A DNA stretch of 25,156 bases from Methanosaeta sp. PtaB.Bin039 (lineage in GTDB: Archaea > Halobacteriota > Methanosarcinia > Methanotrichales > Methanotrichaceae): positions 1-25,156 of the forward strand of contig MVQI01000024.1 in NCBI GenBank assembly GCA_002067795.1, read 5' to 3'. Below are positions 7,115-22,188 of the stretch, piece after piece. Position 1 is the first letter of the stretch; the number at the start of each line of letters is the position of its first letter. Made by a program: the position numbers and the translations under genes. Under the pieces are notes generated by a model. It made no database searches. It was not told the DNA's origin and was given only the letters and a program-made list of their open reading frames with translations.

Positions 7115-7205
7115 AGATCAATCGCAAGCTACTAGCCCGCGGCCGTCCAGCAAAAAAAGTTGCCAGGAAGCACCAATCTGGCACTGTCCCACTGACCCAA
7201 TTTTT

Positions 7206-8306
7206 CTACATCACGCCTGCTACCTTGAGCGGATGTACGCCTGCGCTCTGGAGCAAAGCCAGCCTCTCTGAGTCCACTTCGAACTCCTTTATGACCGAAA
7301 CAACGAGCTGTGGCTGGTTCCAGTACTCCATGAGCCGCACATCCTCGACCAGCTTGGCAGCCCACGACGGCCCCTTGAAATCGGCTGATCCGTCCAGCTC
7401 CCTGGCCCTTGTCCAGTTGAACCCAAGGACCAACGCATCACCCTGCTTGGCAGTCTGGTTCCAGCGAATGTAGATGCCTGCCACATCGCTCTGGTTGTAC
7501 CTGGCTCTCAGAGCGCTCTTCTCCGCGTCGGAGAGGGCCATAACGAACATGCTGCTCTTGCCTGGTGTTGCATCCCATCGCATCTGCAATAAGTCGTCCT
7601 TGCACCACTGGGGACAGGCGATCACTCTATAGCTCTGTGCAGAGATATCCTCGATGGGCAGCTTGCCTTCCACGAACTTGGCGAGCATATAGCCGCTTGT
7701 CACTCCTGGGCAGAGATGATCGTGAAACGCAGTGGCCTGCAGGAAGTCAAACGAGGACCCAGGCTGCGCCCAGACATTGGACATGCCCACAAGGGTGAAC
7801 TCGTTTCCACCAAAGGCTCCCTGGAAGGTGGCGTTGCCCTCATCGGTGTGGTTCAGCATGTAGTCCAGGTCCACGTTAGCCCTCGTGATCCTGGTGAATG
7901 CCTGGTCGGCAGGAAGAGAGGCGAGCTTTTGCGCAGACATGCCCACAGCCCGGTTGTCTGCCTGAAGGAAGATCGCCTCCCCCGTCTCCTTATCGAAGAA
8001 GTAGAACCACAGCGGCTTCCAGTATGGCCGCAGCACCTGAAGCAGGTTGCCGTCGCCGACGCTGCACCCGCTGGCCTCTGTCAGGCCTTTTAAGGCAGCC
8101 TGGGTGGTCTGGCCCTCCACGATGGCATGACCGGCATTTGTGAGTGCCAGTATGTCTTTGTCACCGCTCTGAAATCCCAGTTGAGCCATGGCCTCCTTTG
8201 CAGCCTTTGATCCAATTTCCTCCATAGCAGAGCCCTGCGCATGGACTGCGCATGGCATCGTGGCCAGCAGCAGCGCCAAAGCCACCAACCCAATCGCTTT
8301 AAACAT
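7206..8306 (-). CDS. Secreted FmdE/FwdE-family protein
   Basis: The ORF contains the FmdE hallmark FHDHLCPGVTSGYML. An upstream segment (ILALTNAGHA...ASGCSVGDGNLLQV) also looks FmdE-like. The signal peptide MFKAIGLVALALLLATMPCAVHA begins at ATG 8306, which has a GAGGT 8 nt upstream. The track ORF extends to 8330. Confidence 0.75.
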   Translation of the reverse strand: MFKAIGLVALALLLATMPCAVHAQGSAMEEIGSKAAKEAMAQLGFQSGDKDILALTNAGHAIVEGQTTQAALKGLTEASGCSVGDGNLLQVLRPYWKPLWFYFFDKETGEAIFLQADNRAVGMSAQKLASLPADQAFTRITRANVDLDYMLNHTDEGNATFQGAFGGNEFTLVGMSNVWAQPGSSFDFLQATAFHDHLCPGVTSGYMLAKFVEGKLPIEDISAQSYRVIACPQWCKDDLLQMRWDATPGKSSMFVMALSDAEKSALRARYNQSDVAGIYIRWNQTAKQGDALVLGFNWTRARELDGSADFKGPSWAAKLVEDVRLMEYWNQPQLVVSVIKEFEVDSERLALLQSAGVHPLKVAGVM

Positions 8307-10247: not shown

Positions 10248-11204
10248 ATGCCAAACCTCAACGTGGTGGTCCTGGGTCCAGCCGGCTACTCCAAGGAGCT
10301 GGGAAAGACGGGAACCACTAGCGATATGACCTTTTACAATCTGAAAAGGGGCGAGGATACCGTCACCTTCATAGAGCCCACCCGCTACCCGGAACGTCTG
10401 GCACCCCTCTTTTACGCAGCAACTCTTGCCAGGATGGCGGTTTTGGTGGTGGAGAAGATCGATCCGGCATTCGGAGAGTGCGTCCTGATGCTCGACTGCC
10501 TGGGCATATCCTCCGGCTATCTGATCCTCCGCAACTTCATCCAGAAGGAGCAGGTCTTGCCGCTCATCAAGGGAACGGTCGCAGAGGGCTATGAGCTGCT
10601 GGCAGACGATCCCATTGTCCTGCGTGAGCGCCTGCTGGAAGAGGCGACAAAGGAGAATCCGGCCTTAGACGCTCCCGTTGGCAGCATGCCTGTGGACCAC
10701 TTCTTCAGCGTCCGCGGCGTCGGCACGGTTGTCCTTGGTGCTGTCACCCGGGGCAGCTTAAAGAAGCACGACTCGTTGCGAATCCTGCCGGGCGAAAAGA
10801 CCGCCCAGATCCGCTCGATTCAGAAGCACGACCAGGATTTCGATGCGGCTGGTCAGGGTGAGAGGACCGGACTTGCGCTGAAGGGAATAGAGGTGGACGA
10901 CCTTGACCGCGGCGTTGTGCTCACCACTGATCCGTCCATCAAGGTCAGCAGCTCTGTGCAGGCAAAAGCGCGGCTGGTAAAATACTGGCCATCGCCGCTG
11001 AAGGAAGGCATGGTGCTGCACCTGGGCCACTGGATGCAGTTCGTGCCTGCCAGGGTCGAGTCGGCCAGCGGAGACGACTGGCACAGGCCACTTCTTCAGC
11101 TATCCCTCGACAAGCCACTCGTGCATCCGCCAGGCGCCTCTGGAGTGCTCACCTATCCGGAAGGAGGCAAGCTTCGAGTCGTGGGGACGGTAGAGCTGCC
11201 CTGA
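10248..11204 (+). CDS. EF-Tu/SelB-like protein with a degenerate G domain and an intact EF-Tu domain 2
   Basis: The 318-aa ORF has a middle region typical of the EF-Tu domain 2 beta-barrel (FSVRGVGTVVLGAVTRGSLKKHDSLRILPGEKTAQIRSIQKHDQDFDAAGQGERTGLALKGIEVDDLDRG). The N-terminal ~130 aa align positionally with a G domain. The P-loop reads GPAGYSKELGK instead of GHVDHGK(S/T). I can find no DxxG or NKxD motif. Confidence 0.7.
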   Translation: MPNLNVVVLGPAGYSKELGKTGTTSDMTFYNLKRGEDTVTFIEPTRYPERLAPLFYAATLARMAVLVVEKIDPAFGECVLMLDCLGISSGYLILRNFIQKEQVLPLIKGTVAEGYELLADDPIVLRERLLEEATKENPALDAPVGSMPVDHFFSVRGVGTVVLGAVTRGSLKKHDSLRILPGEKTAQIRSIQKHDQDFDAAGQGERTGLALKGIEVDDLDRGVVLTTDPSIKVSSSVQAKARLVKYWPSPLKEGMVLHLGHWMQFVPARVESASGDDWHRPLLQLSLDKPLVHPPGASGVLTYPEGGKLRVVGTVELP

Positions 11205-11440: not shown

Positions 11441-12283
11441 TCACTGGGTCAGCCCTGCCCTCCACTTCAGCATCCTCTCCTCAACCACGTAGCGGAAGGC
11501 CCTGTCGATGAACAGGCCCAGCAATCCCAGGACTATCATGTAGAGGAGCACGTACTCCATCTTGTGCAGGTAGTAGTACGACCAGATGCGGTAGCCCAGC
11601 CCGCTGGTGCTGACACCGAACATCTCTGCAGCTACAAGGCACATCCAGGATATGCCCATGGCGATCCTTACGCCTCCGGCTATTGAGGGCAGGGCGTACG
11701 GGAAAGCCACGTAGCGGATAAGGTCTCGATTGCTTGTAGCACCCAGCACCTTGGCCGACTCCACGAATACCCGAGGCAGGCTTCTAAATCCCACATAGGT
11801 GTTGATCAGTATGGGAAAGACCGCTCCGACAAATACGATGAACCCGGCGGACTCGTGAGTCAGGCCGAACCAGACGATGGCGAACGGTATCCAGGCCAGC
11901 GGAGGTATGGGCCGTATCACCTCCACCATGGGGTCGATCAGCCGGTCCATGTGCCTAGACCATCCCATTCCCATGCCCAGTGGAAGGGCGAGGAGCACTC
12001 CGGCTCCCATGCCCAACCCGAAGTGAAGCAGGCTTATTGGCAGATCCTGAAATATCAGGGTCTTCCAGCTTGCCTCGAGGGCGACGAGGACCTGCAGAAA
12101 GCTGGGCAGGATCAGGGTGTCGCCCACGAGCATTGCCACGGCCTGCCATACAAGGACCAGGCTGGCAAGGGAGAGGGCGGAAATCCACTCCCTGCGAAGC
12201 GTCTTCGCCCAGTCGCCGTTCATCTTCGACTCCTGCCTGAGCCTGGTATCGCGATCCAGCTCATCAGGCCTTCGCCCTGTCAA
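11441..12283 (-). CDS. ABC transporter permease, NitT/TauT (SsuC/TauC-like) family
   Basis: The 280-aa ORF has six hydrophobic segments and sequence character of binding-protein-dependent permeases (VIRPIPPLAWIPFAIVWFG, ESAKVLGATSNRDLIRYVAFPYALPSI). ATG 12223 is an alternative start with a GGAG upstream. The track start at 12283 overlaps the upstream gene by 20 nt. Confidence 0.85.
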   Translation of the reverse strand: MTGRRPDELDRDTRLRQESKMNGDWAKTLRREWISALSLASLVLVWQAVAMLVGDTLILPSFLQVLVALEASWKTLIFQDLPISLLHFGLGMGAGVLLALPLGMGMGWSRHMDRLIDPMVEVIRPIPPLAWIPFAIVWFGLTHESAGFIVFVGAVFPILINTYVGFRSLPRVFVESAKVLGATSNRDLIRYVAFPYALPSIAGGVRIAMGISWMCLVAAEMFGVSTSGLGYRIWSYYYLHKMEYVLLYMIVLGLLGLFIDRAFRYVVEERMLKWRAGLTQ

Positions 12284-13241
12284 AGAAGCTGGTGTCGAAG
12301 AGCTCCTCCTCAGACAGCTCCTTTTGGGTGTAGTTCATCTGATAGTCCACCTTGGCATACTCCAGGGTAGAGGGGATCTGGATGTGGGGATCGCTCACCC
12401 ACTCGCCGTCCCAGTTCTTGACGGAGTGCATGACCGTCTTGAGATCCTGCTTGGTGCGGTTGGCGTAGATCTCCGCAGCCTCCTCCGGATGGGAGTTAAC
12501 ATACTCGGTTGCCTTCAGGTGGGTCTTGACGATCTGAGCCACCAGCTCCGGATTGTCCCGGATCAGCCGGCCGCTGACAACAAGGCTGCAGCAGGCGTGG
12601 TTGGGCCACATCTGGCCGGAGGGCAGCGCCTCCTGTCCTTTGCCCTCCAGGATGACTATCGACGGCGACGGTGCAGGCAGGAAGACCCCATCGACCTTGC
12701 CGGCGGAGATGGCAGTAACTGCATCTCCCGGCCCCATGGGCAGGATCCTTACCTTGTCGATGTCAACTCCGTTTTCCTGCAGCCACTTCTTCATCACAGT
12801 GTCCTGGATTGACCCAGGCGGAAATGTGCCGATGCTCATCCCTTCAAGTGAGGACGGTCCCAGATAGGCTTTATCTGGCCTCAGGACAAGGTCGGAGCCG
12901 TTGGTATTGACGGCGGCCACGATCTTGGCATCCAGGCCGCTGGCAATTGCCGAGATCGGCGGGGCTGTTCCTACGTAGGCCACATCAAGGCTTCCGGCCA
13001 GCATGGCCTGCATCTCAGGCGGACCGGAGGGAAATTCGAACTCCTTTATCTCGGTAATTCCGAAGGGCTTCAAGTCCTCCAGCCACCATCCTTTCTCCAT
13101 GGCCACCATCTCGGCGATCTGGTGGGTGCTGGGCTGGTAACCTATGTTCAATGTGGTCACCTCGGCCTTCTTCTCCGAGATGCAACCCAGCGTAGCAACC
13201 ACTGCCAGGGCAACAACAGCAATAATTATCTGGCTTCTCAA
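12264..13241 (-). CDS. ABC transporter substrate-binding (lipo)protein, NMT1/THI5-SsuA/TauA-like
   Basis: The 325-aa ORF has a TTG start preceded by GGGGTGAT at 5-nt spacing. Its signal peptide ends in a lipobox-like TLGC. The body is typical of NitT/TauT-family binding proteins (LNIGYQPSTHQ..., GSLDVAYVGTAPPISA, IVAAVNTNGSDLV). Confidence 0.85.
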   Translation of the reverse strand: MRSQIIIAVVALAVVATLGCISEKKAEVTTLNIGYQPSTHQIAEMVAMEKGWWLEDLKPFGITEIKEFEFPSGPPEMQAMLAGSLDVAYVGTAPPISAIASGLDAKIVAAVNTNGSDLVLRPDKAYLGPSSLEGMSIGTFPPGSIQDTVMKKWLQENGVDIDKVRILPMGPGDAVTAISAGKVDGVFLPAPSPSIVILEGKGQEALPSGQMWPNHACCSLVVSGRLIRDNPELVAQIVKTHLKATEYVNSHPEEAAEIYANRTKQDLKTVMHSVKNWDGEWVSDPHIQIPSTLEYAKVDYQMNYTQKELSEEELFDTSFFDRAKA

Positions 13242-13675: not shown

Positions 13676-14932
13676 ATGAGATCGGCTTTCGAGATCTCGG
13701 AGAAGATAAGAAGAGGCCACGGAGTGGTGATGACAGTCGGCGAGCTCCAGCATCTGGCCGAGAGCGGAGACGGAGAGGGGATCGAGGAGGTTGACGTCAT
13801 AACCACAGCTACCCGTGCGGTCATGAGCGGAACTTATGCCGTTCTATCCTTTCCGGCAGCCTGTCCGGGCGCGTTCATCAGGGCCAGGTCTGCCAGGCTC
13901 AACGGCGTCTTGGCCAATGTGGGCCCATGCCCCAACGAGCGGCTGGGTGTGCTCGATCTGGTGGTGTTCGGCACCGGACACAGGGATGCCAGATATGGCG
14001 GCGGGCATCTATTCCGGGACCTGGTTGAGGGAAAAGGGGTGACAGTGGAGATCGAGACGTCAGATGGCCGAATCCTGAAGGACGAGACCTCCCTTGCACG
14101 GATGCAGTCCGCGCGGCTATTCGGAAGCCGCCACTGCTTCAAGAACTACTCCGCCTTCGTCAATCCGGGATGCCAGGATGTAAGGACCATATTTCATGCG
14201 GTCGGCTTTCCGCCGAACCTGGCTGCAGCCACCTTCTCCGGATGCGGCCGCTACAGCCCGCTGCAGTGCGATCCTCTTTTAGAGGGCATCGGCGCAGGCA
14301 GCCGAATACTGATGAACGGCGCAACAGGCATGGTAATTGGGCCCGGCACACGCAGCAGCAAACAGCGCCCGAACCTTAGCGGATTTGCCGATATGGCTGG
14401 AATGGACCCGCAGCTGATGGGCGGCTTCATCACGTCGGCAGGCCCGGAATGCATCTGCTCCTGGGCTGTGGCAATCCCTGTTGTCAGCCCATCCATTTTG
14501 CAGGCTGCCCTGACCCCTGACCGGGATATCCACATGCCTGTGATGGACGTCGTAGAGCGCAGGCCACTGGGAGAGGCAGACTACGGCCAGGTCTGGGACG
14601 ATGTGGACCTGGCGGTGCGATTCTCACCTCAGGCGTGCCGAGGCTGCCAGGCCTGCCAGGCAGAGGAGAGCTGTCCCACCCAGGCGATTGGCCGGGATAA
14701 AGGGATAAGGATTGACCGCAGCCTGTGCTTCAACTGTGGGCTTTGTTCTACGATCTGTCCGGACGTCTTCGCCGCCAGGCTGGGATCGATCGGGCTTGCA
14801 GGAAGACAGGTGCCGGTGGCCATGCGCCAGTCTGACCGGGCCAGGGCCCAGAAGATGGCTGCTGACCTGAAACGGCGAATACTCGACGGCTCTTTCCAGA
14901 TAACTCCGATGATCGATGCTATCCGGTTCTAG
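13676..14932 (+). CDS. comF: DUF39/COG1900-domain protein with a C-terminal 2x[4Fe-4S] ferredoxin domain; candidate coenzyme M synthase (ComF/MJ1681-type)
   Basis: The 418-aa ORF has AGGTGA 5 nt upstream of its ATG. The N-terminal ~330 aa read as the DUF39 family (ISEKIRRGHGVVMTVGEL..., VDVITTATRAVMSG, KNYSAFVNPG, GSRILMNGATGMVIGPGTRS). The C-terminus has two Cys clusters, CRGCQACQAEESCP and CFNCGLCSTICP. It is adjacent and convergent to comE and comD. The functional call comes from family knowledge plus context, not from sequence alone. Confidence 0.7.
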   Translation: MRSAFEISEKIRRGHGVVMTVGELQHLAESGDGEGIEEVDVITTATRAVMSGTYAVLSFPAACPGAFIRARSARLNGVLANVGPCPNERLGVLDLVVFGTGHRDARYGGGHLFRDLVEGKGVTVEIETSDGRILKDETSLARMQSARLFGSRHCFKNYSAFVNPGCQDVRTIFHAVGFPPNLAAATFSGCGRYSPLQCDPLLEGIGAGSRILMNGATGMVIGPGTRSSKQRPNLSGFADMAGMDPQLMGGFITSAGPECICSWAVAIPVVSPSILQAALTPDRDIHMPVMDVVERRPLGEADYGQVWDDVDLAVRFSPQACRGCQACQAEESCPTQAIGRDKGIRIDRSLCFNCGLCSTICPDVFAARLGSIGLAGRQVPVAMRQSDRARAQKMAADLKRRILDGSFQITPMIDAIRF

Positions 14933-15449
14933 TGGGGAGACAAGAGGTGAACCGGTCCCGGATCTGAAGAGGGGAGAGTGGGATGATCGGTACTTCGGCG
15001 TTTCCAGGCTCTACCCGGACAACCAGGACGCCGGATCGGTCAAGGCTGCGTCGCAGTTCCTCCGAAGTGGCGGCCTGGCCGACCTCCTCCACGCCGGCTG
15101 CCCTTGCCATCTGGACGAGATCGGTCTTCTGGGCTGTGCAGGTCAGCTGGCAGCCTGTGGAGCCGTAAGAGCAGTTATCAAGGATTATCAGCAGGTAGCC
15201 AGAAGGCGCATGGTGAGCGATCGTGGCCAGGGTGCCCAGGTTCATGAGGACTGAGCCGTCGCCGTCGATGACGAAGACCCGGCGTCCGCTGGCCAGCGCA
15301 AGCCCGAGGCCGATTGAAGAGGCGAGCCCCATCGAGCCCAGCATGTAGAAGTTCTCAGGCCGGTCGTAAACAGCGTAAAGCTCCCTGCTGGGATAGCCGA
15401 TGTTGCAGACGAGCAGGGCTTTCTGCCTCACAGCCTGCCCCGCCACCAC
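14919..15449 (-). CDS. comE: Sulfopyruvate decarboxylase beta subunit (TPP-binding)
   Basis: The 176-aa ORF has the thiamine-diphosphate motif VIDGDGSVLMNLG...IILDN and the conserved NIGYPSRELY and FYMLGSMGLASSIGLGLA blocks. The track start is GTG 15449. The frame stays open upstream to 15485 (see findings). Confidence 0.85.
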   Translation of the reverse strand: MVAGQAVRQKALLVCNIGYPSRELYAVYDRPENFYMLGSMGLASSIGLGLALASGRRVFVIDGDGSVLMNLGTLATIAHHAPSGYLLIILDNCSYGSTGCQLTCTAQKTDLVQMARAAGVEEVGQAATSEELRRSLDRSGVLVVRVEPGNAEVPIIPLSPLQIRDRFTSCLPTRTG

Positions 15450-15493: not shown

Positions 15494-16072
15494 TCAGATC
15501 CCCTTCCAGAAGTCCAGGTCGAGGAGCACTGCCGCCAGAGTACCCCTTTCCCATGCTGCTGCAGCGGCATGGGCCACGAACGACCTGGCCTGCTGCGGCC
15601 GTGGTGTCCAGCTTGGTATGCCCAGAGCATCCAGCAAGGGCGCGGTCAGCCGGCCCATCGGGATCTGGCCGGAGATCTTCTCCCCACTGGACCCCCTGTG
15701 GCTTATTATCATCAGCAGGGGCAGCCCGTAGAGCTGATCCAGCGAGGCAAGGGCGTTGATGCTATTTCCCAGGCCGGAGTTTTGCATCAGAAGTGCAGGA
15801 CGGAGGCCTCCCAGGAAAGCTCCGGCGCAGATCCCTACCCCCTCCTCCTCCCTGGTGACCGGGACGAAGCGTATCTCAGGATCTGCCTCGACCATAGTCA
15901 GCAGCTCCTGTAGGTTGATGCAGGGGACGCTGGCCGCAAAGTCGATCCCGCCATCCTTCATCCCCATGAAGATCCAATGGCTTGGGCTCGCAGGATGCTG
16001 GCCAAAAGTGGCCGAATGTCCATCAGAATCGGCTTGCCTGGGCGTTGGCGGCTTGATGTCCATCACCTTCAT
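15494..16072 (-). CDS. comD: Sulfopyruvate decarboxylase alpha subunit
   Basis: The 192-aa ORF resembles a TPP-enzyme PYR domain (GIDFAASVPCINL, VTREEEGVGICAGAFLGG, LLMQNSGLGNSINALASL, PLLMIISHRG). It lies immediately upstream of comE on the same strand. A GGAGA lies 13 nt upstream of the ATG. Confidence 0.85.
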   Translation of the reverse strand: MKVMDIKPPTPRQADSDGHSATFGQHPASPSHWIFMGMKDGGIDFAASVPCINLQELLTMVEADPEIRFVPVTREEEGVGICAGAFLGGLRPALLMQNSGLGNSINALASLDQLYGLPLLMIISHRGSSGEKISGQIPMGRLTAPLLDALGIPSWTPRPQQARSFVAHAAAAAWERGTLAAVLLDLDFWKGI

Positions 16073-17991: not shown

Positions 17992-18651
17992 TTACCAAAC
18001 CTTCAGGTCTATCCCCTCAATCCTCACCATCCGACCCTCGGAGTGCACAACCACTCCGGAATGCACCTTCTGCATCATGCAGTGCTCAGGCAGGAAACGG
18101 ACGGTCTGGCCCACAGACGGGATACTGCCACGGACCACCAGGCCTTCAAATGCTGCCACCATGCAGACGCCAAGGTCGTTGTATTCGGCCTGCTGTCCCA
18201 GCAGGTGCAGCGGGCCTACCATATGAACGGTCAGAATGCCGTGCTCCCATCCAAGCACCCGGGCGAAATGGGTCACCGGACAACCAAGTGGGCGATAGCG
18301 GATAAGGTCGCCTGGGCAAAATGTGAGACTTCGATCGAATGGAAATAGGTCCTCACGACAGGAGGGCTCGCCAGGCAGCGGCCCCAATGAGAAGTCAGCC
18401 AAAAGGCCGTCTATAACTCCCCGAACAGTCTCCTCCGACGCGGCCCTATTGCCGGAGAGGACTTCTCGGATGCCTTCTGCATGTCCTGCAAAGCGCTCCT
18501 GCCCAAGATAGGGACACTGCCCCGTATCGCCGCCACCGCTTGCCAGCAGCTGAGCGAAATTTTGGCAGCTCCTCTGGCCGCACTCTCCGCAGTTGAATCC
18601 GGGAAGCAGCCGCTCCACCTGTTCTGATAGGTTCAAGGCCTTGGTCCTCAC
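17992..18651 (-). CDS. Fe-S cluster domain protein (RnfB/CdhE-N-terminal-type 4Fe-4S motif) with an uncharacterised C-terminal domain
   Basis: The 219-aa ORF has the N-terminal motif C-x2-C-x4-C-x16-C ([31 protein letters not shown]). I do not recognise the C-terminal ~140 aa; it appears beta-rich. The GTG start overlaps the upstream stop in a GTGA. Confidence 0.7.
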
Positions 18652-19346
18652 TCACCGGAGTATTCCATAAATCCGTCCATATGCCTGAGAACACCCCGGT
18701 GATATCGCTTGGAGACTCGCAGCTCGCCGCTGCAAAGAGTGCAGACGGCCAGCGGCGGATTGTGGCGGAGCATCATATTCTCTGCGGCAGGCGGAAGCGC
18801 CCGGATTATCTCTGCCAGATCGCTCCCGCCCTTCCCGGTAAGTCCATTGGCCTCAACTATCCTGCAATGCGGATTGGCCTCGAGCACCCTCTCTCTGAAA
18901 ACCTCGCGCTCGGCCTGCGATACCAGATCGCATTTGGTCGTGACCACCACGTCTGCGGTGGTCAGAAGCGGTCCAACCTTGAGCGGGGTGTTGGGTCCGG
19001 TCGTAACATCGATCACGCAGACGGCCAGGCAGTGGTCGGGATAGGGGGCGCACCTGAGACACAGCCCGGCAGTCTCGTTGAGCAGGACATCTGCATCCTG
19101 CTTCTTTGCCCATTCGAGCATCTCGTCCACGTTATATATGGAGAAGTGATCGGGACACATGTCCCTGGAGAGCGCCACATGTACCGGAATTCCCAGGCGG
19201 CCGATGCGCTTGTCGTCCTCAGTCCACAGGCAGTCCACCTTTACAACTGCTGGCCGGCTGCCGGATCCCTCAAGACACCTGGCCGCATGCATCAGGACCG
19301 ATGTCTTGCCTGATCCGGGGGTGCCAGCTATCACCACAAGCTTCAC
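18648..19346 (-). CDS. G3E-family P-loop GTPase (HypB/UreG/CobW-like), Cys-rich
   Basis: The 232-aa ORF has Walker [10 protein letters not shown], a switch region [12 protein letters not shown] (compare the ExxG-plus-Cys metal sites of HypB and COG0523) and the guanine-specificity motif TKCD. It also has a C-terminal CTLC. The GTG start overlaps the upstream stop in a GTGA. Confidence 0.75.
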
Positions 19347-20104
19347 AGGGCCGCCTCCGCGGCGCTGACGGTCTCACCCCTGCGAATGGCCTCCCGCAGG
19401 TTGATCAGCCACCGGTCCACACGGCTCAAGCTGTTACAGACCTTTTGCTCCTCCTCGCTTGTCTGGATTACCCGGACCATATTTCCCTTCTTCATGACCA
19501 CACGCCGAGAGGTCATAAGGGCCAGGACCGGATCATGGGTGACCACCACCACGATCTTGCCCTCGCCTGCCAGGAGCTTGAGAGCCTCTTGCTTCTTGAT
19601 CCCGGCATTTTCTATCTCGTCGATGAGGACAATTGGAGAGTCGCTGATAACCGCTATATCGGCTGTCATCAGGGCCCGCGACTGGCCTCCGCTCAGAGCG
19701 GTCAGGTGGTGCTCCGGGTGTATGGGCTCGCCGGTCAGGGTGTTGGCGAGATCTATCACCTTTGCGATCAGGTTCTCCTCCCTACCACGGCTCTTTGCAT
19801 GCATTGCCAGGAAGTCCGAGACCGTCATATCTGCCAGGAAATGCATATTCTGGGAGAGCTGAGCCACAGGCTTTCTGCGCGGATCTGCCCTGACCTCTGC
19901 ATCTGGAGGCTGGCCATCGATGAGCACCTGGCGGCGGGATTCCGTATCTCTTTGGGCAAACTGCTCCAGGTCGGATATCAGCGTGCTCTTCCCTGACCCG
20001 GTTGGCCCAACGATTCCGACGATCTCGCCGCTATCGATATGTAGTGTCTCTATGTGATCCGCACATCCATCTTTGTCCACGCCACCCAGAATTGTAAGCC
20101 TCAA
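19343..20104 (-). CDS. Atypical soluble ABC-type ATPase with no adjacent permease
   Basis: The 253-aa ORF has Walker [10 protein letters not shown], the signature LSGGQSRAL, Walker B and D-loop [12 protein letters not shown] (not the transporter-type DEPTxxLD) and an H-loop VTHD. It has a ~40-aa C-terminal extension. The TTG start lies 6 nt after the cysteate synthase stop, with an AGGAG inside that gene's 3' end. Confidence 0.8.
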
Positions 20105-20110
20105 TTTTCG

Positions 20111-21409
20111 TCAACTCCTGATGAACTCCAGTACCTGCTTCTCCAGGTCGTCGGCCGGATGCCCCGGCCTGACCTTCATCTGGCAGGGAAGGATCGACGG
20201 CCCTAGTTCTTCCCAGGACCGCTTGACACCGCCTCCTGTGATGTTTAGGAGGACCATCTCTTCCTTTCTTACCGCCCCATCCTCCATTGCTTTCAGAAGC
20301 GCTGCAACTGCCACTGCTGGCGCCGGGAGGATGTCTATGCCTTCGCTGGACTCAAACAGCTGCCTGGCAGCTTCAGCCTCATCGTTGGCGACCCCCAAAA
20401 CAGCTCCGCTCGTCTCACGCAGGGCCTGCTCAACCCCCCCAGGAATGGCGTAGGGTGGATTTCTGTTGAACAGGACATCGTCATACATCTCATCCGGGCA
20501 GCCAAGCCCTTTCCATATCTCCGATAATCCTGACGGGGACTCGCCGCCAGGACCCGTCCATAGCCTATGAATAGGCGCACATGGCAGGTTTTGGGCCAGA
20601 TGCAGCCTGGGGATATTTGATCCGAAGCGGCCGTCTCCCGCCAGCCGCAATGCCGCCTCCCACGCAGCGATACCGCCGGTGCCGCTGCCCACTGCCTGGA
20701 AGTAATGATCTGGGATCACACCTGCGGTTGCGGCTGCCTCCAGCATCACTGTGCCCATCCCGTCACGCCGGGCGATGTTCCTGGCGCCGCCTTCCGGAAG
20801 GAATCCGGGGCGGCTGGCCAGACGGTCGGCCGCCTGTATGGCGTCAAGATAGTCGCCTTCTACTCCTGCCAGGCAGATCCGCCCGGGCTCCACCGTGGTC
20901 CACAGCCTGTGCAGAGAGGACGTCGGTACAAAAAGGACAACGGGTCGACCGGTCAGCGAGGCGGTCTGGGCGAAGGCCCTGGCTGTATTTCCTGCCGATG
21001 CCACAACCAGTACAGGGGCATTGTGCCCTCCCGGCACTCCGGCGACGGGCCTGGCAGTCTCGGATAGGCGCTGCATCGTGGGAGCTGCTTCCAGCTCCTT
21101 GAAGCTGCCGGTGACCATCGATGCTCCCATCTCTGGCCAAAAACCGGAGAAGCTTATAAAGAGCCTCTGAAGGCCTATCTCCCTGGCCAGTCCCTGGCTC
21201 TGATAGCACACCGATCCGGCGCCAGTTCGCATATCAGGGCTCTTTACCGGAAGCCAGGCAAGATGACGCCATACACCCGGCAGGTCCGCTATCTCCAGCC
21301 GCTTCTGGGAATAGACCGCACGCGGCAGCCCAGGATCCAGCCGACAGCTAGTGGCCAGATCATGGAGGACGGAGCCGCAGCCCTGGCAGCATACCTTGTA
21401 ATCTCCCAT
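20111..21409 (-). CDS. Threonine-synthase-family PLP enzyme; called as cysteate synthase from context
   Basis: The 432-aa ORF has an N-terminal Cys pair (VCCQGCG), the PLP-lysine motif TGSFKE and the ASAGNTARAF block typical of the ThrC fold type II family. GAGAGGT lies 9 nt upstream of the ATG. Linkage to comD, comE and a ComF-type gene matches the cysteate route of CoM synthesis in Methanosarcinales. By eye, sequence alone cannot separate cysteate synthase from ThrC. Confidence 0.75.
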   Translation of the reverse strand: MGDYKVCCQGCGSVLHDLATSCRLDPGLPRAVYSQKRLEIADLPGVWRHLAWLPVKSPDMRTGAGSVCYQSQGLAREIGLQRLFISFSGFWPEMGASMVTGSFKELEAAPTMQRLSETARPVAGVPGGHNAPVLVVASAGNTARAFAQTASLTGRPVVLFVPTSSLHRLWTTVEPGRICLAGVEGDYLDAIQAADRLASRPGFLPEGGARNIARRDGMGTVMLEAAATAGVIPDHYFQAVGSGTGGIAAWEAALRLAGDGRFGSNIPRLHLAQNLPCAPIHRLWTGPGGESPSGLSEIWKGLGCPDEMYDDVLFNRNPPYAIPGGVEQALRETSGAVLGVANDEAEAARQLFESSEGIDILPAPAVAVAALLKAMEDGAVRKEEMVLLNITGGGVKRSWEELGPSILPCQMKVRPGHPADDLEKQVLEFIRS

Positions 21410-21450
21410 GATACACAGACCTCTCTCGCGGGGGCATATAATGTTTTCTG

Positions 21451-21458
21451 TTTATATC
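21451..21458 (-). promoter_or_regulatory. Candidate TATA box for the cysteate synthase operon
   Basis: The minus strand reads CGATATAAA within the AT-rich divergent region 21410..21669. The predicted transcription start leaves a ~20-nt leader that contains the GAGAGGT Shine-Dalgarno site. A second TATA-like ATTATATG at 21435..21442 is an alternative. Confidence 0.3.
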
Positions 21459-21641
21459 GATTTTTTATCCTTATTGGGAATATTGACAAATATAAGTTTC
21501 CTTTAATGGATACATTCCGGCCGAAAACATGCCAATTGGACCCGGCGGCAGGGGATGGATGAGTGCCCTTCAGAGCAGTAGCAGCATGCTGGAATGGCCC
21601 TTCTAATTCCCGCGGTTATCAGCATTGGATTCCAAAAGTAC

Positions 21642-21655
21642 AAATATCATAAAAT
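21642..21655 (+). promoter_or_regulatory. Candidate TATA box for the XRE regulator (leaderless start)
   Basis: AAATATCATAAAAT is centred about 20-25 nt upstream of ATG 21670. There is no Shine-Dalgarno-like sequence between them. Confidence 0.3.
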
Positions 21656-21669
21656 CGTAACCCAATAGT

Positions 21670-22188
21670 ATGCCACATACCGACCGGGTGATGAGAGCGG
21701 CCTTCCAGTCAGACGAGGCTTTGCGGGAGGCCATGAAGGCCGTCCTCGGCGAACTGGGCATGAGCGCGCGGGAGTTCTCCAAGCATTCTGGAATACCCCA
21801 GAGCACACTTTACAAGATCTTATCAGGCCATCGGGAGCCGAACATAACCACGCTTCGCCAGATCGTCCGAACAATCAGGCAGCTCGAGGGATCTGACGCC
21901 AAGTTCATAGCCATCATAGCTGCGAGGCCGGTTCTGGACAAGATCGAGGAGAAGAAGATGCGCATCGGCGACCGGATGATGACACTCCGAGAGTACTCGG
22001 CAACCAACATCGAGGAGGCCATTATCGCTGCAGTGCGAGCCGAGGCCGACGGAGCCGCAGCCCTGGTCTGTGCCCCAATCGTCAGCCCAACCGTAGAGAA
22101 GCTGCTATCCATCCCGGTAGCAACAATAATTCCCAGGGAGAGCGTCCTTCGGGCCATCGAGGTGGCTGCGAGAAAGGCGGAGGAATGA
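21670..22188 (+). CDS. XRE/Cro-type helix-turn-helix transcriptional regulator with an uncharacterised C-terminal domain
   Basis: The 172-aa ORF has the HTH segment LGMSAREFSKHSGIPQSTLYKILSGHREPNITTLRQIV. I could not assign the C-terminal ~90 aa (FIAIIAARPVLD..., ALVCAPIVSPTVEKLL). It is transcribed divergently from the cysteate synthase operon. Confidence 0.75.
   Translation: MPHTDRVMRAAFQSDEALREAMKAVLGELGMSAREFSKHSGIPQSTLYKILSGHREPNITTLRQIVRTIRQLEGSDAKFIAIIAARPVLDKIEEKKMRIGDRMMTLREYSATNIEEAIIAAVRAEADGAAALVCAPIVSPTVEKLLSIPVATIIPRESVLRAIEVAARKAEE

What the first reader, a model, noticed from the sequence alone, without database searches (positions are those of the whole stretch)
17992..20104. 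Uncharacterised three-gene module (soluble ABC-type ATPase, Cys-rich G3E GTPase, Fe-S domain protein) translationally coupled to cysteate synthase
Seen in the sequence:
- Four minus-strand genes run 21409 to 17992 with almost no spacing. The cysteate synthase stop is at 20111, then a TTG start at 20104 with an AGGAG inside the upstream coding end.
- Two GTGA stop/start overlaps follow, at 19343-19346 and 18648-18651. All three downstream genes use non-ATG starts.
- None of the three has a hydrophobic segment, and no permease is adjacent.
- The ATPase has Walker [10 protein letters not shown] and the signature LSGGQSRAL. Its Walker B and D-loop read [10 protein letters not shown], which resembles the non-transport SufC style (DExDSGLD) more than the importer DEPTxxLD.
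- The GTPase has [22 protein letters not shown] and a terminal CTLC. That is a G3E metallochaperone layout with an unusual Cys arrangement.
- The third protein has the C-x2-C-x4-C-x16-C cluster motif known from the RnfB and CdhE N-termini, fused to a domain I cannot place.

Established knowledge: the cysteate route to CoM is described with four activities (cysteate synthase, an aminotransferase, ComDE and a ComF-type enzyme). None of them is an NTPase.

Inference: the trio may be a nucleotide-driven maturation or delivery module serving this pathway. Candidate roles are metal or Fe-S cluster insertion into the ComF-type enzyme, or handling of the sulfite or sulfide substrate. I know of no described function for such a module.
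Basis: partly seen in the sequence, partly recalled or inferred. Interest (0 to 1): 0.8.

Follow-up and report, generated by a model that had tools for sequence, protein, structure and literature searches.

The report
Conserved ATPase–GTPase–FeS trio beside sulfonate synthases
Three tightly coupled genes after cysteate synthase form a conserved module of unknown function that sits next to sulfite-using enzymes in both archaea and bacteria, so it is a testable candidate for how strict anaerobes supply sulfite for coenzyme M.

Summary
The genes run cysteate synthase, ABC-type ATPase, HypB-like G3E GTPase and a COG2000 Fe-S protein on the minus strand. They are joined by a 6-nt gap and two GTGA overlaps, and none has a membrane segment.

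The co-localisation with CoM genes is already in print. Chadwick et al. 2025 (PMC12068725, Fig 2 legend) say the "putative role remains unknown".

New here:
- **Autonomous module.** The trio also occurs in bacteria.
- **Archaeal context.** It lies within 5 kb of cysteate synthase in 50 of 59 Methanosarcinales-type loci. In Methanomicrobiales-type loci it heads an ABC-GTP-FES-ComF-CS-ComDE operon.
- **Bacterial context.** In Clostridia-like spore formers it follows ComA, or ComA plus ComB, which make sulfolactate. No ComF-type gene is present there.
- **GTPase.** It keeps the HypB G-domain metal ligands and adds two invariant CxxC motifs.
- **Fe-S protein.** It joins a CFeSP/RnfB-type [4Fe-4S] domain to a beta-barrel. 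The barrel has no structural match and carries invariant Cys/His residues.

Best reading: a nucleotide-driven metalloprotein module serving the sulfite-dependent sulfonation step. This is inferred, not shown. ComF maturation is less likely, and a transporter role is rejected.

The parts
20111..21409 (-). Cysteate synthase, first gene of the four-gene unit. It uses sulfite plus O-phosphoserine.
   Evidence: TIGR03844 at 545 bits against a cut-off of 324.9, and PF00291 PALP.
20115..20119 (-). AGGAG ribosome-binding motif inside the 3' end of cysteate synthase, 10 nt upstream of the TTG start of the ATPase.
   Evidence: Read directly from the sequence.
19343..20104 (-). Soluble ABC-type ATPase, 253 aa. 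It has Walker A, Q-loop, LSGGQ, Walker B with catalytic Glu, and H-loop. The D-loop is replaced by an invariant ENAGI, the helix after LSGGQ is about 6 residues shorter, and there is a C-terminal extension of about 45 aa.
   Evidence: PF00005 at 59.8 bits. Best PDB sequence matches are MacB/LolD nucleotide-binding domains, with a gap after LSGGQ. Invariant residues across archaeal and bacterial trios are in alignment A6. No TM segment.
19343..19346 (-). GTGA stop/start overlap between the ATPase and the GTPase.
   Evidence: Junctions of 0 to 4 bp are conserved in other loci.
18648..19346 (-). HypB/UreG-like G3E GTPase, 232 aa. Invariant features are C64-P-D-H67, E91xAGLC96xRC99xPY, TKxD and a C-terminal C202-T-x-C205...H216 tail.
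   Evidence: PF02492 at 51 bits. TIGR00073 hypB at 54.9 bits, below its cut-off of 121.2. Profile alignment to M. jannaschii and A. fulgidus HypB. The AF2 G-domain matches HypB/UreG at TM 0.68-0.78, and the tail 197-232 has pLDDT below 50. It is 74-82% identical across Methanosarcinales. Invariant residues are in A5.
18648..18651 (-). GTGA stop/start overlap between the GTPase and the Fe-S protein.
   Evidence: The same 4-bp overlap is seen in L001, L004 and L172.
17992..18651 (-). COG2000-type Fe-S protein, 219 aa. The N-terminal domain is a CFeSP/RnfB-type [4Fe-4S] domain (C21, C24, C29, C46). The C-terminal domain is a beta-barrel with family-wide invariant R120, C124-P125, H128, C191 and H197.
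21410..21669 (.). AT-rich divergent intergenic region with TATA-like elements. It is the probable promoter region for the cysteate synthase/trio operon and the HTH gene.
   Evidence: Sequence reading. Not tested functionally.
21670..22188 (+). HTH_3 (XRE-type) regulator, transcribed divergently and conserved with the operon.
   Evidence: PF01381. It is 80-86% identical and in the same divergent position in Methanotrichaceae loci. Homologues at 39-42% identity lie upstream of the trio operon in Methanomicrobiales-type loci.
15494..16072 (-). ComD, sulfopyruvate decarboxylase alpha subunit (pathway context).
   Evidence: TIGR03845 at 199.3 bits against a cut-off of 147.95.
14919..15449 (-). ComE, sulfopyruvate decarboxylase beta subunit (pathway context).
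   Evidence: TIGR03846 at 225.9 bits against a cut-off of 221.5.
13676..14932 (+). ComF / methanogenesis marker 16 (COG1900 plus ferredoxin domain), the CoM synthase (pathway context).
   Evidence: TIGR03287 at 483.5 bits against a cut-off of 363.95. PF01837 plus Fer4. Role taken from PMC12068725.

Best explanation
The three genes encode one self-contained, cytoplasmic, nucleotide-driven metalloprotein module. It moves as a unit through archaea and bacteria.

**Components**
- A HypB-type G3E GTPase that keeps the HypB dimer-interface metal ligands and adds two invariant CxxC motifs.
- An ABC-type ATPase with no membrane partner.
- A small Fe-S protein. It joins an electron-transfer [4Fe-4S] domain of the CFeSP/RnfB type to a novel beta-barrel with an invariant Cys/His site.

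**Proposed role.** In this window the module is translated together with cysteate synthase. The most likely role is at the sulfite-dependent C-SO3 bond-forming step. The module would make, or hand over in protected form, the S(IV) species. Cysteate synthase consumes it in archaea, and ComA consumes it in bacteria.

**Proposed working order (inferred)**
1. The GTPase dimer loads or gates a metal or cluster at the Cys/His site of the Fe-S protein.
2. The [4Fe-4S] domain moves electrons.
3. ATP hydrolysis by the ABC dimer drives the conformational or low-potential step.

**Shown:** gene structure, conservation, domain identities, invariant residues and neighbourhood statistics.

**Inferred:** complex formation, the metal, the sulfite chemistry and the division of labour.
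For: **The trio is a unit**
- It has the same order and 0 to 4-bp junctions in Methanotrichaceae, ANME-2, ANME-1, Methanomicrobiales, Clostridia-like bacteria, Bacteroidota and a 6-Mb bacterium.
- All 41 metagenome loci with enough flank carry all three genes.

**Neighbours**
- Cysteate synthase lies within 5 kb in 50 of 59 GTDB loci.
- An ABC-GTP-FES-ComF-CS-ComDE operon is present in 14 of the 41 metagenome loci with enough flank.
- ComA (PF02679, 306.7 bits) lies directly upstream in 9 bacterial loci whose ComA sequences are 47-77% identical. Three of these also carry ComB (PF04029, 238.5 bits).
- By established enzymology, cysteate synthase and ComA share only sulfite as a substrate.
- No COG1900/ComF hit was found in any bacterial locus.

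**Metalloprotein character**
- HypB ligands are retained and the G-domain has the HypB/UreG fold.
- Five Cys and two His are invariant in the GTPase.
- The Fe-S protein has four cluster Cys plus C124, H128, C191 and H197 invariant.

**Not a transporter**
- None of the three proteins has a TM segment, and no permease is conserved next to the trio.

**Open question it would answer**
- The source of sulfite for CoM synthesis is stated to be unclear (PMC6286981).
- The trio's role is stated to be unknown (PMC12068725).
Against: - The domains resemble no known sulfite-forming enzyme. There is no siroheme, no PAPS/APS-reductase fold and no molybdopterin signature.
- 17 of 41 distant-clade loci have no sulfonate gene within reach.
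- In glycan clusters the partner is a generic 4,6-dehydratase-like SDR, not UDP-sulfoquinovose synthase.
- In Methanomicrobiales-type loci the Fe-S gene abuts ComF. In ANME-1 the trio is convergent with a COG1900 gene.
- Other bacterial neighbours (NifU, Mrp/NUBPL, Cys/Met PLP enzymes) fit a broader sulfur or Fe-S trafficking role.
- ANME-2c genomes keep the Fe-S gene next to ComD without an adjacent ATPase or GTPase.
- There is no expression, interaction or biochemical evidence.
Confidence: 0.4

Rival explanations
1. The trio matures ComF/MMP16 or supplies it with electrons or sulfur. The GTPase and ATPase would insert a metal or Fe-S centre into ComF, and the Fe-S protein would donate electrons for reductive thiolation of sulfoacetaldehyde.
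For: - In Methanomicrobiales-type loci the Fe-S gene ends where ComF starts (for example L108, L111 and L118).
- In ANME-1 the trio is convergent with a COG1900 gene.
- ComF lies 3 kb away in the window.
- The electron and sulfur donors of ComF are unresolved (PMC12068725).
Against: - Bacterial loci carry the trio with ComA and ComB and no COG1900 gene, and sulfolactate synthesis has no thiolation step.
- In Methanotrichaceae the trio is coupled to cysteate synthase, while ComF is on the other strand and often outside the flank.
- ComF already carries its own ferredoxin domain.
Confidence: 0.2
2. The trio is a general metal or Fe-S homeostasis and trafficking module of anaerobes, with no dedicated link to sulfonate synthesis. 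Its position next to CoM genes would reflect co-regulation or ancestral synteny.
For: - It stands alone or next to a two-component system, NifU, Mrp/NUBPL, DUF364 or ChrA in several bacteria.
- The GTPase is a HypB-type metallochaperone.
- 17 of 41 loci have no pathway neighbour.
Against: - The adjacency to sulfonate-pathway genes recurs independently in at least four archaeal orders and in Clostridia-like bacteria. It does so with different gene orders and with two non-homologous sulfite-using enzymes.
- The family is very small and patchy for a housekeeping function: 177 representatives.
Confidence: 0.22
3. The ATPase is the missing nucleotide-binding subunit of the SsuA/SsuC-type sulfonate transporter at 11441-13241.
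For: - That transporter has no ATPase gene next to it in the window.
- The trio ATPase has a Q-loop and its best matches are transporter nucleotide-binding domains.
Against: - The ATPase is always linked to the GTPase and the Fe-S protein, including in loci with no Ssu genes and in bacteria.
- No NCBIfam transporter model comes near its cut-off. The best is 59.7 bits against a cut-off of 254.85, and SsuB/TauB are not among the top 25.
- It has an invariant non-canonical D-loop and a shortened signature helix.
Confidence: 0.03

Closest known systems
HypB / UreG G3E metallochaperone GTPases (Ni insertion into hydrogenase and urease)
   Same: - It has the same fold (Foldseek TM 0.68-0.78), Walker A, ExxG and (N/T)KxD.
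- The Cys/His and Cys positions align with the M. jannaschii HypB dimer-interface metal site.
   Different: - It scores below the HypB and UreG equivalog cut-offs.
- It has no N-terminal high-affinity or His-rich site.
- It has an extra Cys that makes CxxC after Walker B, and an invariant C-terminal CxxC...H tail.
- It is never next to hydrogenase or urease genes in the loci examined.
- It is partnered with an ABC ATPase and a COG2000 protein, not with HypA/SlyD or UreDEF.
ATPase, Ni-binding GTPase and COG2000 Fe-S genes noted by Chadwick et al. 2025 (PLoS Genet, PMC12068725, Fig 2B legend)
   Same: This is the same three gene families, co-localised with CoM biosynthesis genes in methanogens. 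The window is one more instance.
   Different: That paper gives no function ('putative role remains unknown') and discusses only MCR-encoding archaea.
N-terminal [4Fe-4S] domain of the corrinoid iron-sulfur protein large subunit (AcsC/CdhE) and of RnfB
   Same: PF04060 with the C-x2-C-x4-C-x16-C motif. The best sequence and structure matches are CFeSP and RnfB.
   Different: Only the first 50 residues or so match. The rest is a beta-barrel with no TIM-barrel/corrinoid domain, no further ferredoxin domains and no membrane anchor.
Soluble ABC ATPases that drive metallocofactor chemistry (MCR activation component A2; SufC)
   Same: It is an ABC-type nucleotide-binding domain without a permease, encoded with Fe-S and metal-handling partners. 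This analogy rests on established knowledge and was not tested here.
   Different: It has a single nucleotide-binding domain of 253 aa, whereas A2 has two. No SufC or A2 model appears among its best profile matches. The D-loop is ENAGI, and the signature helix is shortened.

Membership tests
ABC ATPase superfamily (PF00005) | Profile score above the Pfam gathering threshold | tested here: met
   59.8 bits against 25.
ABC ATPase superfamily (PF00005) | Walker A, Q-loop, LSGGQ signature, Walker B with catalytic Glu, and H-loop | tested here: met
   GPTGSGK[ST], Q85, LSGGQ[ST]R, L(I/L)DE and VTHDP are invariant in 8 archaeal and bacterial members.
ABC ATPase superfamily (PF00005) | Canonical D-loop (SALD) and a full-length helix after the signature | tested here: not met
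   The D-loop is ENAGI. HMMER places a 6-residue gap after LSGGQ relative to MacB.
ABC transporter nucleotide-binding subunit (including SsuB for 11441-13241) | A conserved adjacent permease, or a match to a named transporter ATPase model above its cut-off | tested here: not met
   No permease is conserved beside the trio in 170 loci. The best NCBIfam score is 59.7 against a cut-off of 254.85.
SufC (Fe-S assembly ABC ATPase) | A match to a SufC model | tested here: not met
   SufC is not among the 25 best of 160 NCBIfam hits, which are exporter and importer nucleotide-binding domains. The PDB best matches are MacB and LolD.
G3E GTPase family (PF02492 cobW/HypB/UreG) | Profile above threshold and a G3E fold | tested here: met
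   51 bits against 20.7. The top six Foldseek hits are HypB or UreG.
G3E GTPase family (PF02492 cobW/HypB/UreG) | Metal-binding Cys/His motif between Walker A and Walker B, and a Cys after ExxG | tested here: met
   C64-P-D-H67 and C96/C99 are invariant and align to the HypB CH motif and to Cys of ENVGNLICP. Metal binding itself was not tested.
HypB proper (hydrogenase Ni insertion) | Equivalog score and hyp/hydrogenase gene context | tested here: not met
   TIGR00073 scores 54.9 against a cut-off of 121.2. No hyp or hydrogenase genes are in the window or the loci.
PF04060 Fe-S domain (CFeSP / RnfB N-terminus) | Four-Cys motif and a profile above threshold | tested here: met
   38.6 bits against 23. 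C21, C24, C29 and C46 are invariant in 20 diverse members.
RnfB or CdhE/AcsC as whole proteins | A full-length match to the family model | tested here: not met
   Only residues 3 to about 70 match, with scores of 23-34 bits against cut-offs of 68-450.
Coenzyme M biosynthesis gene set (functional membership) | Conserved genomic linkage to CoM genes across lineages | tested here: met
   50 of 59 and 14 of 41 loci. Also L085, L172 and L174. PMC12068725 Fig 2 legend.
Coenzyme M biosynthesis gene set (functional membership) | Restricted to CoM-producing organisms | tested here: not met
   It is present in bacteria with only ComA and ComB, in glycan clusters, or alone.
Coenzyme M biosynthesis gene set (functional membership) | Loss causes CoM auxotrophy, or the protein has an in-vitro activity in the pathway | not testable with these tools
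   This needs genetics or biochemistry.
UDP-sulfoquinovose synthase (for the SDR inserted in the bacterial trio) | A match to the SqdB/SQD1 equivalog | tested here: not met
   NF041015 scores 27.9 against a cut-off of 575. The best match is dTDP-glucose 4,6-dehydratase at 95.5 bits, and SQD1 is not among the PDB hits.

The most novel reading that the evidence does not exclude
The trio is a previously unrecognised enzyme or carrier system driven by ATP and GTP. It would generate or channel sulfite (S(IV)) inside strict anaerobes that live on sulfide. It would feed cysteate synthase in Methanosarcinales and Methanomicrobiales, and ComA in spore-forming Clostridia. This would answer where the sulfonate sulfur of coenzyme M and sulfolactate comes from.
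Probability: 0.25. Interest if true: 0.85.

Novelty: new variant of a known kind. Interest (0 to 1): 0.62.

Why it matters
Coenzyme M is indispensable for methanogenesis and anaerobic alkane oxidation. Its sulfonate group needs sulfite, which is toxic to methanogens, and its intracellular source is unresolved (PMC6286981).

A conserved, compact module that travels with two unrelated sulfite-consuming enzymes in two domains of life is a concrete, clonable candidate for that missing step. At the least it would be a new accessory system for sulfonate biosynthesis.

It would also add a new client class to the G3E metallochaperone family, and another case of an ABC ATPase working away from membranes. 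If the module is required for CoM synthesis it becomes a possible target for methane mitigation.

Tried and rejected
1. **SqdB idea.** I asked whether the SDR between the Fe-S gene and the ATPase in bacterial glycan clusters is UDP-sulfoquinovose synthase, which would be a third sulfite enzyme. Rejected: NF041015 scores 27.9 against 575 and there is no SQD1 hit.

2. **MA4556.** This 'GTP-binding protein' is up 3.4 log2 in the CoM-starved delta-MMP16 strain (paper S4 Table). I considered it as the M. acetivorans orthologue. It lies between RuBisCO and the strongly induced 'cobalamin-dependent protein' MA4558, with no ABC or Fe-S neighbours in the table. I could not fetch its sequence, so I do not use it as evidence. 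Whether Methanosarcina has the trio remains unknown.

3. **ATPase as the Ssu transporter subunit.** Rejected (see rivals).

4. **Fold of the Fe-S protein's C-terminal domain.**
   - Foldseek gives nothing at E of 0.001 or better.
   - A profile search of PDB sequences matches only the Fe-S domain.

5. **Unavailable or failed runs.** The afdb50 library was not available. The genome scan with the very diverse alignment A2 failed for lack of a conserved stretch.

6. **Saturated scan.** The scan with A3 was saturated by Methanotrichaceae. Other orders had to be reached through a second homology search, single look-ups and a metagenome scan.

7. **Three-dimensional clustering of C124, H128, C191 and H197.** This could not be checked because model coordinates are not exposed.

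8. **Bacterial loci without sulfonate genes.** A census of their neighbours found no dominant partner.
Full report
**1. Observation**

Four minus-strand ORFs run 21409 to 17992. Read from the sequence:
- The cysteate synthase stop TGA is at 20113-20111.
- AGGAG lies at 20119-20115.
- The ATPase starts at TTG 20104. This is the first start codon after the in-frame TGA.
- GTGA stop/start overlaps lie at 19346-19343 and 18651-18648.

Profile searches confirm the four identities:
- TIGR03844 cysteate synthase, 545 bits.
- PF00005 ABC_tran, 59.8 bits.
- PF02492 cobW/HypB/UreG, 51 bits.
- PF04060 FeS, 38.6 bits, on residues 16-48 only.

None of the three downstream proteins has a hydrophobic segment. 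The maximum Kyte-Doolittle value over 19 residues is 1.15-1.48, against 2.07 for the SsuC-like permease.

The window also carries:
- ComD, ComE and ComF/MMP16, all above their NCBIfam cut-offs.
- An SsuA/SsuC-type sulfonate transporter pair at 11441-13241 with no ATPase gene beside it.
- A divergent HTH_3 gene at 21670-22188.

The organism is a Methanotrichaceae archaeon. The GTPase is 100% identical to a database entry of that name.

**2. Prior knowledge**

Full-text searches found one paper that mentions these genes. [quoted passage not shown]

The same paper establishes MMP16 as the main CoM synthase (ComF). It also says that the sulfur donor and the electron supply of that step are unresolved.

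So the co-localisation is already in print as a remark, and the function is open.

**3. The proteins**

GTPase:
- It is unusually conserved, at 74-82% identity across Methanosarcinales, and all members are 232 aa.
- Across archaeal and bacterial members the invariant residues are AGxPxxGKT, D-x-C64-P-D-H67, E91-x-A-G-L-C96-x-R-C99-x-P-Y, T-K/R-x-D, S-Q-A-E, C202-T-x-C205-x-G and H216.
- In a profile alignment to M. jannaschii and A. fulgidus HypB, C64/H67 fall on the HypB Cys-His motif. C99 falls on the Cys of ENVGNLICP. These are the HypB dimer-interface metal ligands.
- The AF2 model of residues 1-196 matches HypB and UreG best, at TM 0.68-0.78.
- The invariant Cys-rich tail 197-232 is predicted with pLDDT below 50. 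It probably needs a metal or a partner to fold.
- It is not a HypB equivalog: 54.9 bits against a cut-off of 121.2. It is never seen beside hyp genes.

ATPase:
- It has all catalytic ABC motifs.
- It has an invariant D-E-(I/V)-E-N-A-G-I where Walker B and the D-loop sit, and a gap of about 6 residues after LSGGQ relative to MacB.
- Its best matches are MacB/LolD/MJ0796-type nucleotide-binding domains. There is no SufC signal.

Fe-S protein:
- Its family is tiny, with 177 representatives at 50% clustering among 1.84 billion.
- Family-wide invariants are the four cluster cysteines plus R120, C124-P125, H128, C191, H197 and G199. C98 and C163 are invariant only in the Methanosarcinales clade.
- In the AF2 model (pLDDT 86.5) the C-terminal 140 residues form a beta-barrel.

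**4. Neighbourhood census in archaea**

A scan of one genome per GTDB species returned 80 loci, dominated by Methanotrichaceae and ANME-2. Mapping the window proteins onto them gave these counts for the 59 loci with at least 3.5 kb upstream:

| Feature | Loci |
|---|---|
| Complete trio | 53 |
| Cysteate synthase within 5 kb | 50 |
| ANME-2c-type: Fe-S gene without adjacent ATPase or GTPase | 6 |

- The usual Methanotrichaceae order is HTH(-) | CS-ABC-GTP-FES.
- Of the six ANME-2c-type loci, three have the Fe-S gene directly before ComD and three show no pathway gene within reach. In L068 it is clearly solitary.

Other archaeal loci:
- A Methanogenium genome has Mdh-ABC-GTP-FES-CS-ComDE.
- A Methanophagales (ANME-1) contig has the trio convergent with a COG1900 gene.
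- An AT-rich archaeal contig has PALP-ABC-GTP-FES.

A metagenome scan with the distant clade gave 41 loci with enough flank, and all 41 carry the trio. Fourteen of them are contiguous ABC-GTP-FES-ComF-CS-ComDE operons, often with an HTH_3 gene upstream.

**5. The trio in bacteria**

The distant clade of the Fe-S family includes bacterial entries, and so does the clade nearest the window.

| Context | Loci |
|---|---|
| Clostridia-like spore formers: ComA (PF02679, 306.7 bits) directly upstream, ComA sequences 47-77% identical | 9 |
| Of those, also ComB (PF04029, 238.5 bits), giving ComA-ComB-ABC-GTP-FES | 3 |
| Pseudaminic-acid-type glycan clusters: PseG-x-FES-SDR-ABC-GTP-acetyltransferase-NeuB | 8 |
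| Two ChrA-type anion transporter genes directly upstream | 4 |
| HisKA_3/GerE two-component pair upstream (Bacteroidota MAG and a 6-Mb bacterium) | 3 |

- ComA plus ComB is a sulfolactate pathway with no later CoM steps. GerA-type germination genes lie nearby in these loci.
- Other loci have NifU, Mrp/NUBPL, DUF364 or Cys/Met PLP enzymes nearby.
- No bacterial locus has a COG1900/ComF gene.

**6. Interpretation**

The trio is an autonomous module, not an appendage of one pathway enzyme.

Its recurrent partners in independent lineages are cysteate synthase and ComA. These two enzymes are unrelated. By established enzymology, all they share is sulfite, which each adds to a carbon skeleton.

ComF is a neighbour only where the whole CoM pathway is fused into one operon, and it is absent from the bacterial loci. 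This favours a role at the sulfite-dependent step over ComF maturation.

The literature states that the intracellular source of sulfite for CoM synthesis is unclear (PMC6286981).

The protein features point to a redox-active metalloprotein system driven by nucleotide hydrolysis:
- a HypB-type metal site plus extra CxxC motifs in the GTPase;
- an electron-transfer [4Fe-4S] domain joined to a Cys/His-bearing barrel;
- a permease-less ABC ATPase.

The chemistry cannot be decided here. It could be oxidation of sulfide or persulfide, reduction of an oxidised sulfur species, or carriage of S(IV) as a protein adduct. The domains resemble no known sulfite-forming enzyme, which is the main weakness of the idea.

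Neighbours such as NifU, Mrp and COG1900 keep a broader 'sulfur/Fe-S trafficking' reading alive.

**7. Rejected ideas**

- The SDR in the glycan clusters is not UDP-sulfoquinovose synthase.
- The ATPase is not the Ssu transporter subunit. It is always linked to the GTPase and the Fe-S protein, it lacks any transporter-model score, and it has a non-canonical D-loop.
- MA4556, a GTP-binding protein induced by CoM starvation in M. acetivorans, sits in a different cluster and could not be tied to this family.

**8. Verdict**

The claim of an unrecognised association is not new, but the function is still unknown.

- the bacterial distribution;
- the ComA/ComB linkage;
- the invariant residue sets.

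Together these turn 'unknown role' into a specific, testable hypothesis about sulfite supply. I rate it a new variant of the G3E metallochaperone-type accessory systems. Interest is moderate to high, with roughly a one-in-four chance that it is a new kind of sulfite-providing system.

Noticed in passing
window 21670-22188 (+), and L001-L083 upstream of cysteate synthase: The divergent HTH_3 (XRE-type) protein is 80-86% identical across Methanotrichaceae, while the adjacent cysteate synthase is only 53-59% identical. A homologue at 39-42% identity sits upstream of the ABC-GTP-FES-ComF-CS-ComDE operon in Methanomicrobiales-type loci. It is a likely dedicated regulator of CoM biosynthesis. Its C-terminal 100 residues have no Pfam match.
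   Followed up: partly
window 11441-13241 (-) and 10248-11204 (+): The SsuA-family binding protein and an SsuC/SaoP-like permease have no ATPase gene adjacent. Next to them is a 318-aa protein with only an EF-Tu domain 2 (weak SelB/EF-1alpha/CysN similarity). The same gene is conserved beside SsuC in L006.
   Followed up: partly
L086, L089, L092, L094-L097, L088: In bacterial pseudaminic-acid-type clusters (PseB, PseC, PseG, Pse methylase, NeuB/PseI-like) the trio is split by a dTDP-glucose-4,6-dehydratase-like SDR (FES-SDR-ABC-GTP). Two 328-aa proteins lie upstream, one PseG-like and one with no family match. What the trio does in a glycan pathway is unexplained.
   Followed up: partly
L043, L050, L058, L060, L065, L066 and L068 (ANME-2c / Methanogaster): The COG2000 Fe-S gene occurs without an adjacent ATPase or GTPase. 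It lies either directly upstream of ComD or alone. Whether the other two genes are elsewhere in these genomes is unknown.
   Followed up: partly
L056 8102-8629, L072 11384-11722, L081 13922-14449: Some Methanothrix loci carry a second, diverged copy or fragment of the Fe-S gene (53-59% identity) 1-4 kb downstream of the trio.
   Followed up: no
L149, L153, L155, L159 (about 7147-8300): Two tandem ChrA-type (chromate/sulfate-analogue) transporter genes lie immediately upstream of the trio in a high-GC bacterial lineage.
   Followed up: partly
L090, L091, L173: In a 6-Mb bacterium and a Bacteroidota MAG the trio directly follows a HisKA_3 histidine kinase and a GerE-type response regulator. That position is usually occupied by an ABC-2 transporter.
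   Followed up: no
Supplementary S4 Table of PMC12068725 (M. acetivorans MA4556-MA4562): A cluster is among the most induced genes in the CoM-starved delta-MMP16 strain (log2 3.4 to 8.4). It contains a 'GTP-binding protein' (MA4556), a hypothetical gene, the 'cobalamin-dependent protein' MA4558 and a hydantoinase/oxoprolinase-family protein. Its relation to the trio GTPase was not resolved.
   Followed up: partly
L049, L064, L078: Contigs carrying the archaeal trio plus cysteate synthase and ComDE are filed under Anaerolineales, WOR-3 and Methanomassiliicoccus MAGs. The first two look like binning errors.
   Followed up: no
window 14919-14932: ComF (+) and ComE (-) converge, and their 3' ends overlap by 14 nt.
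   Followed up: no
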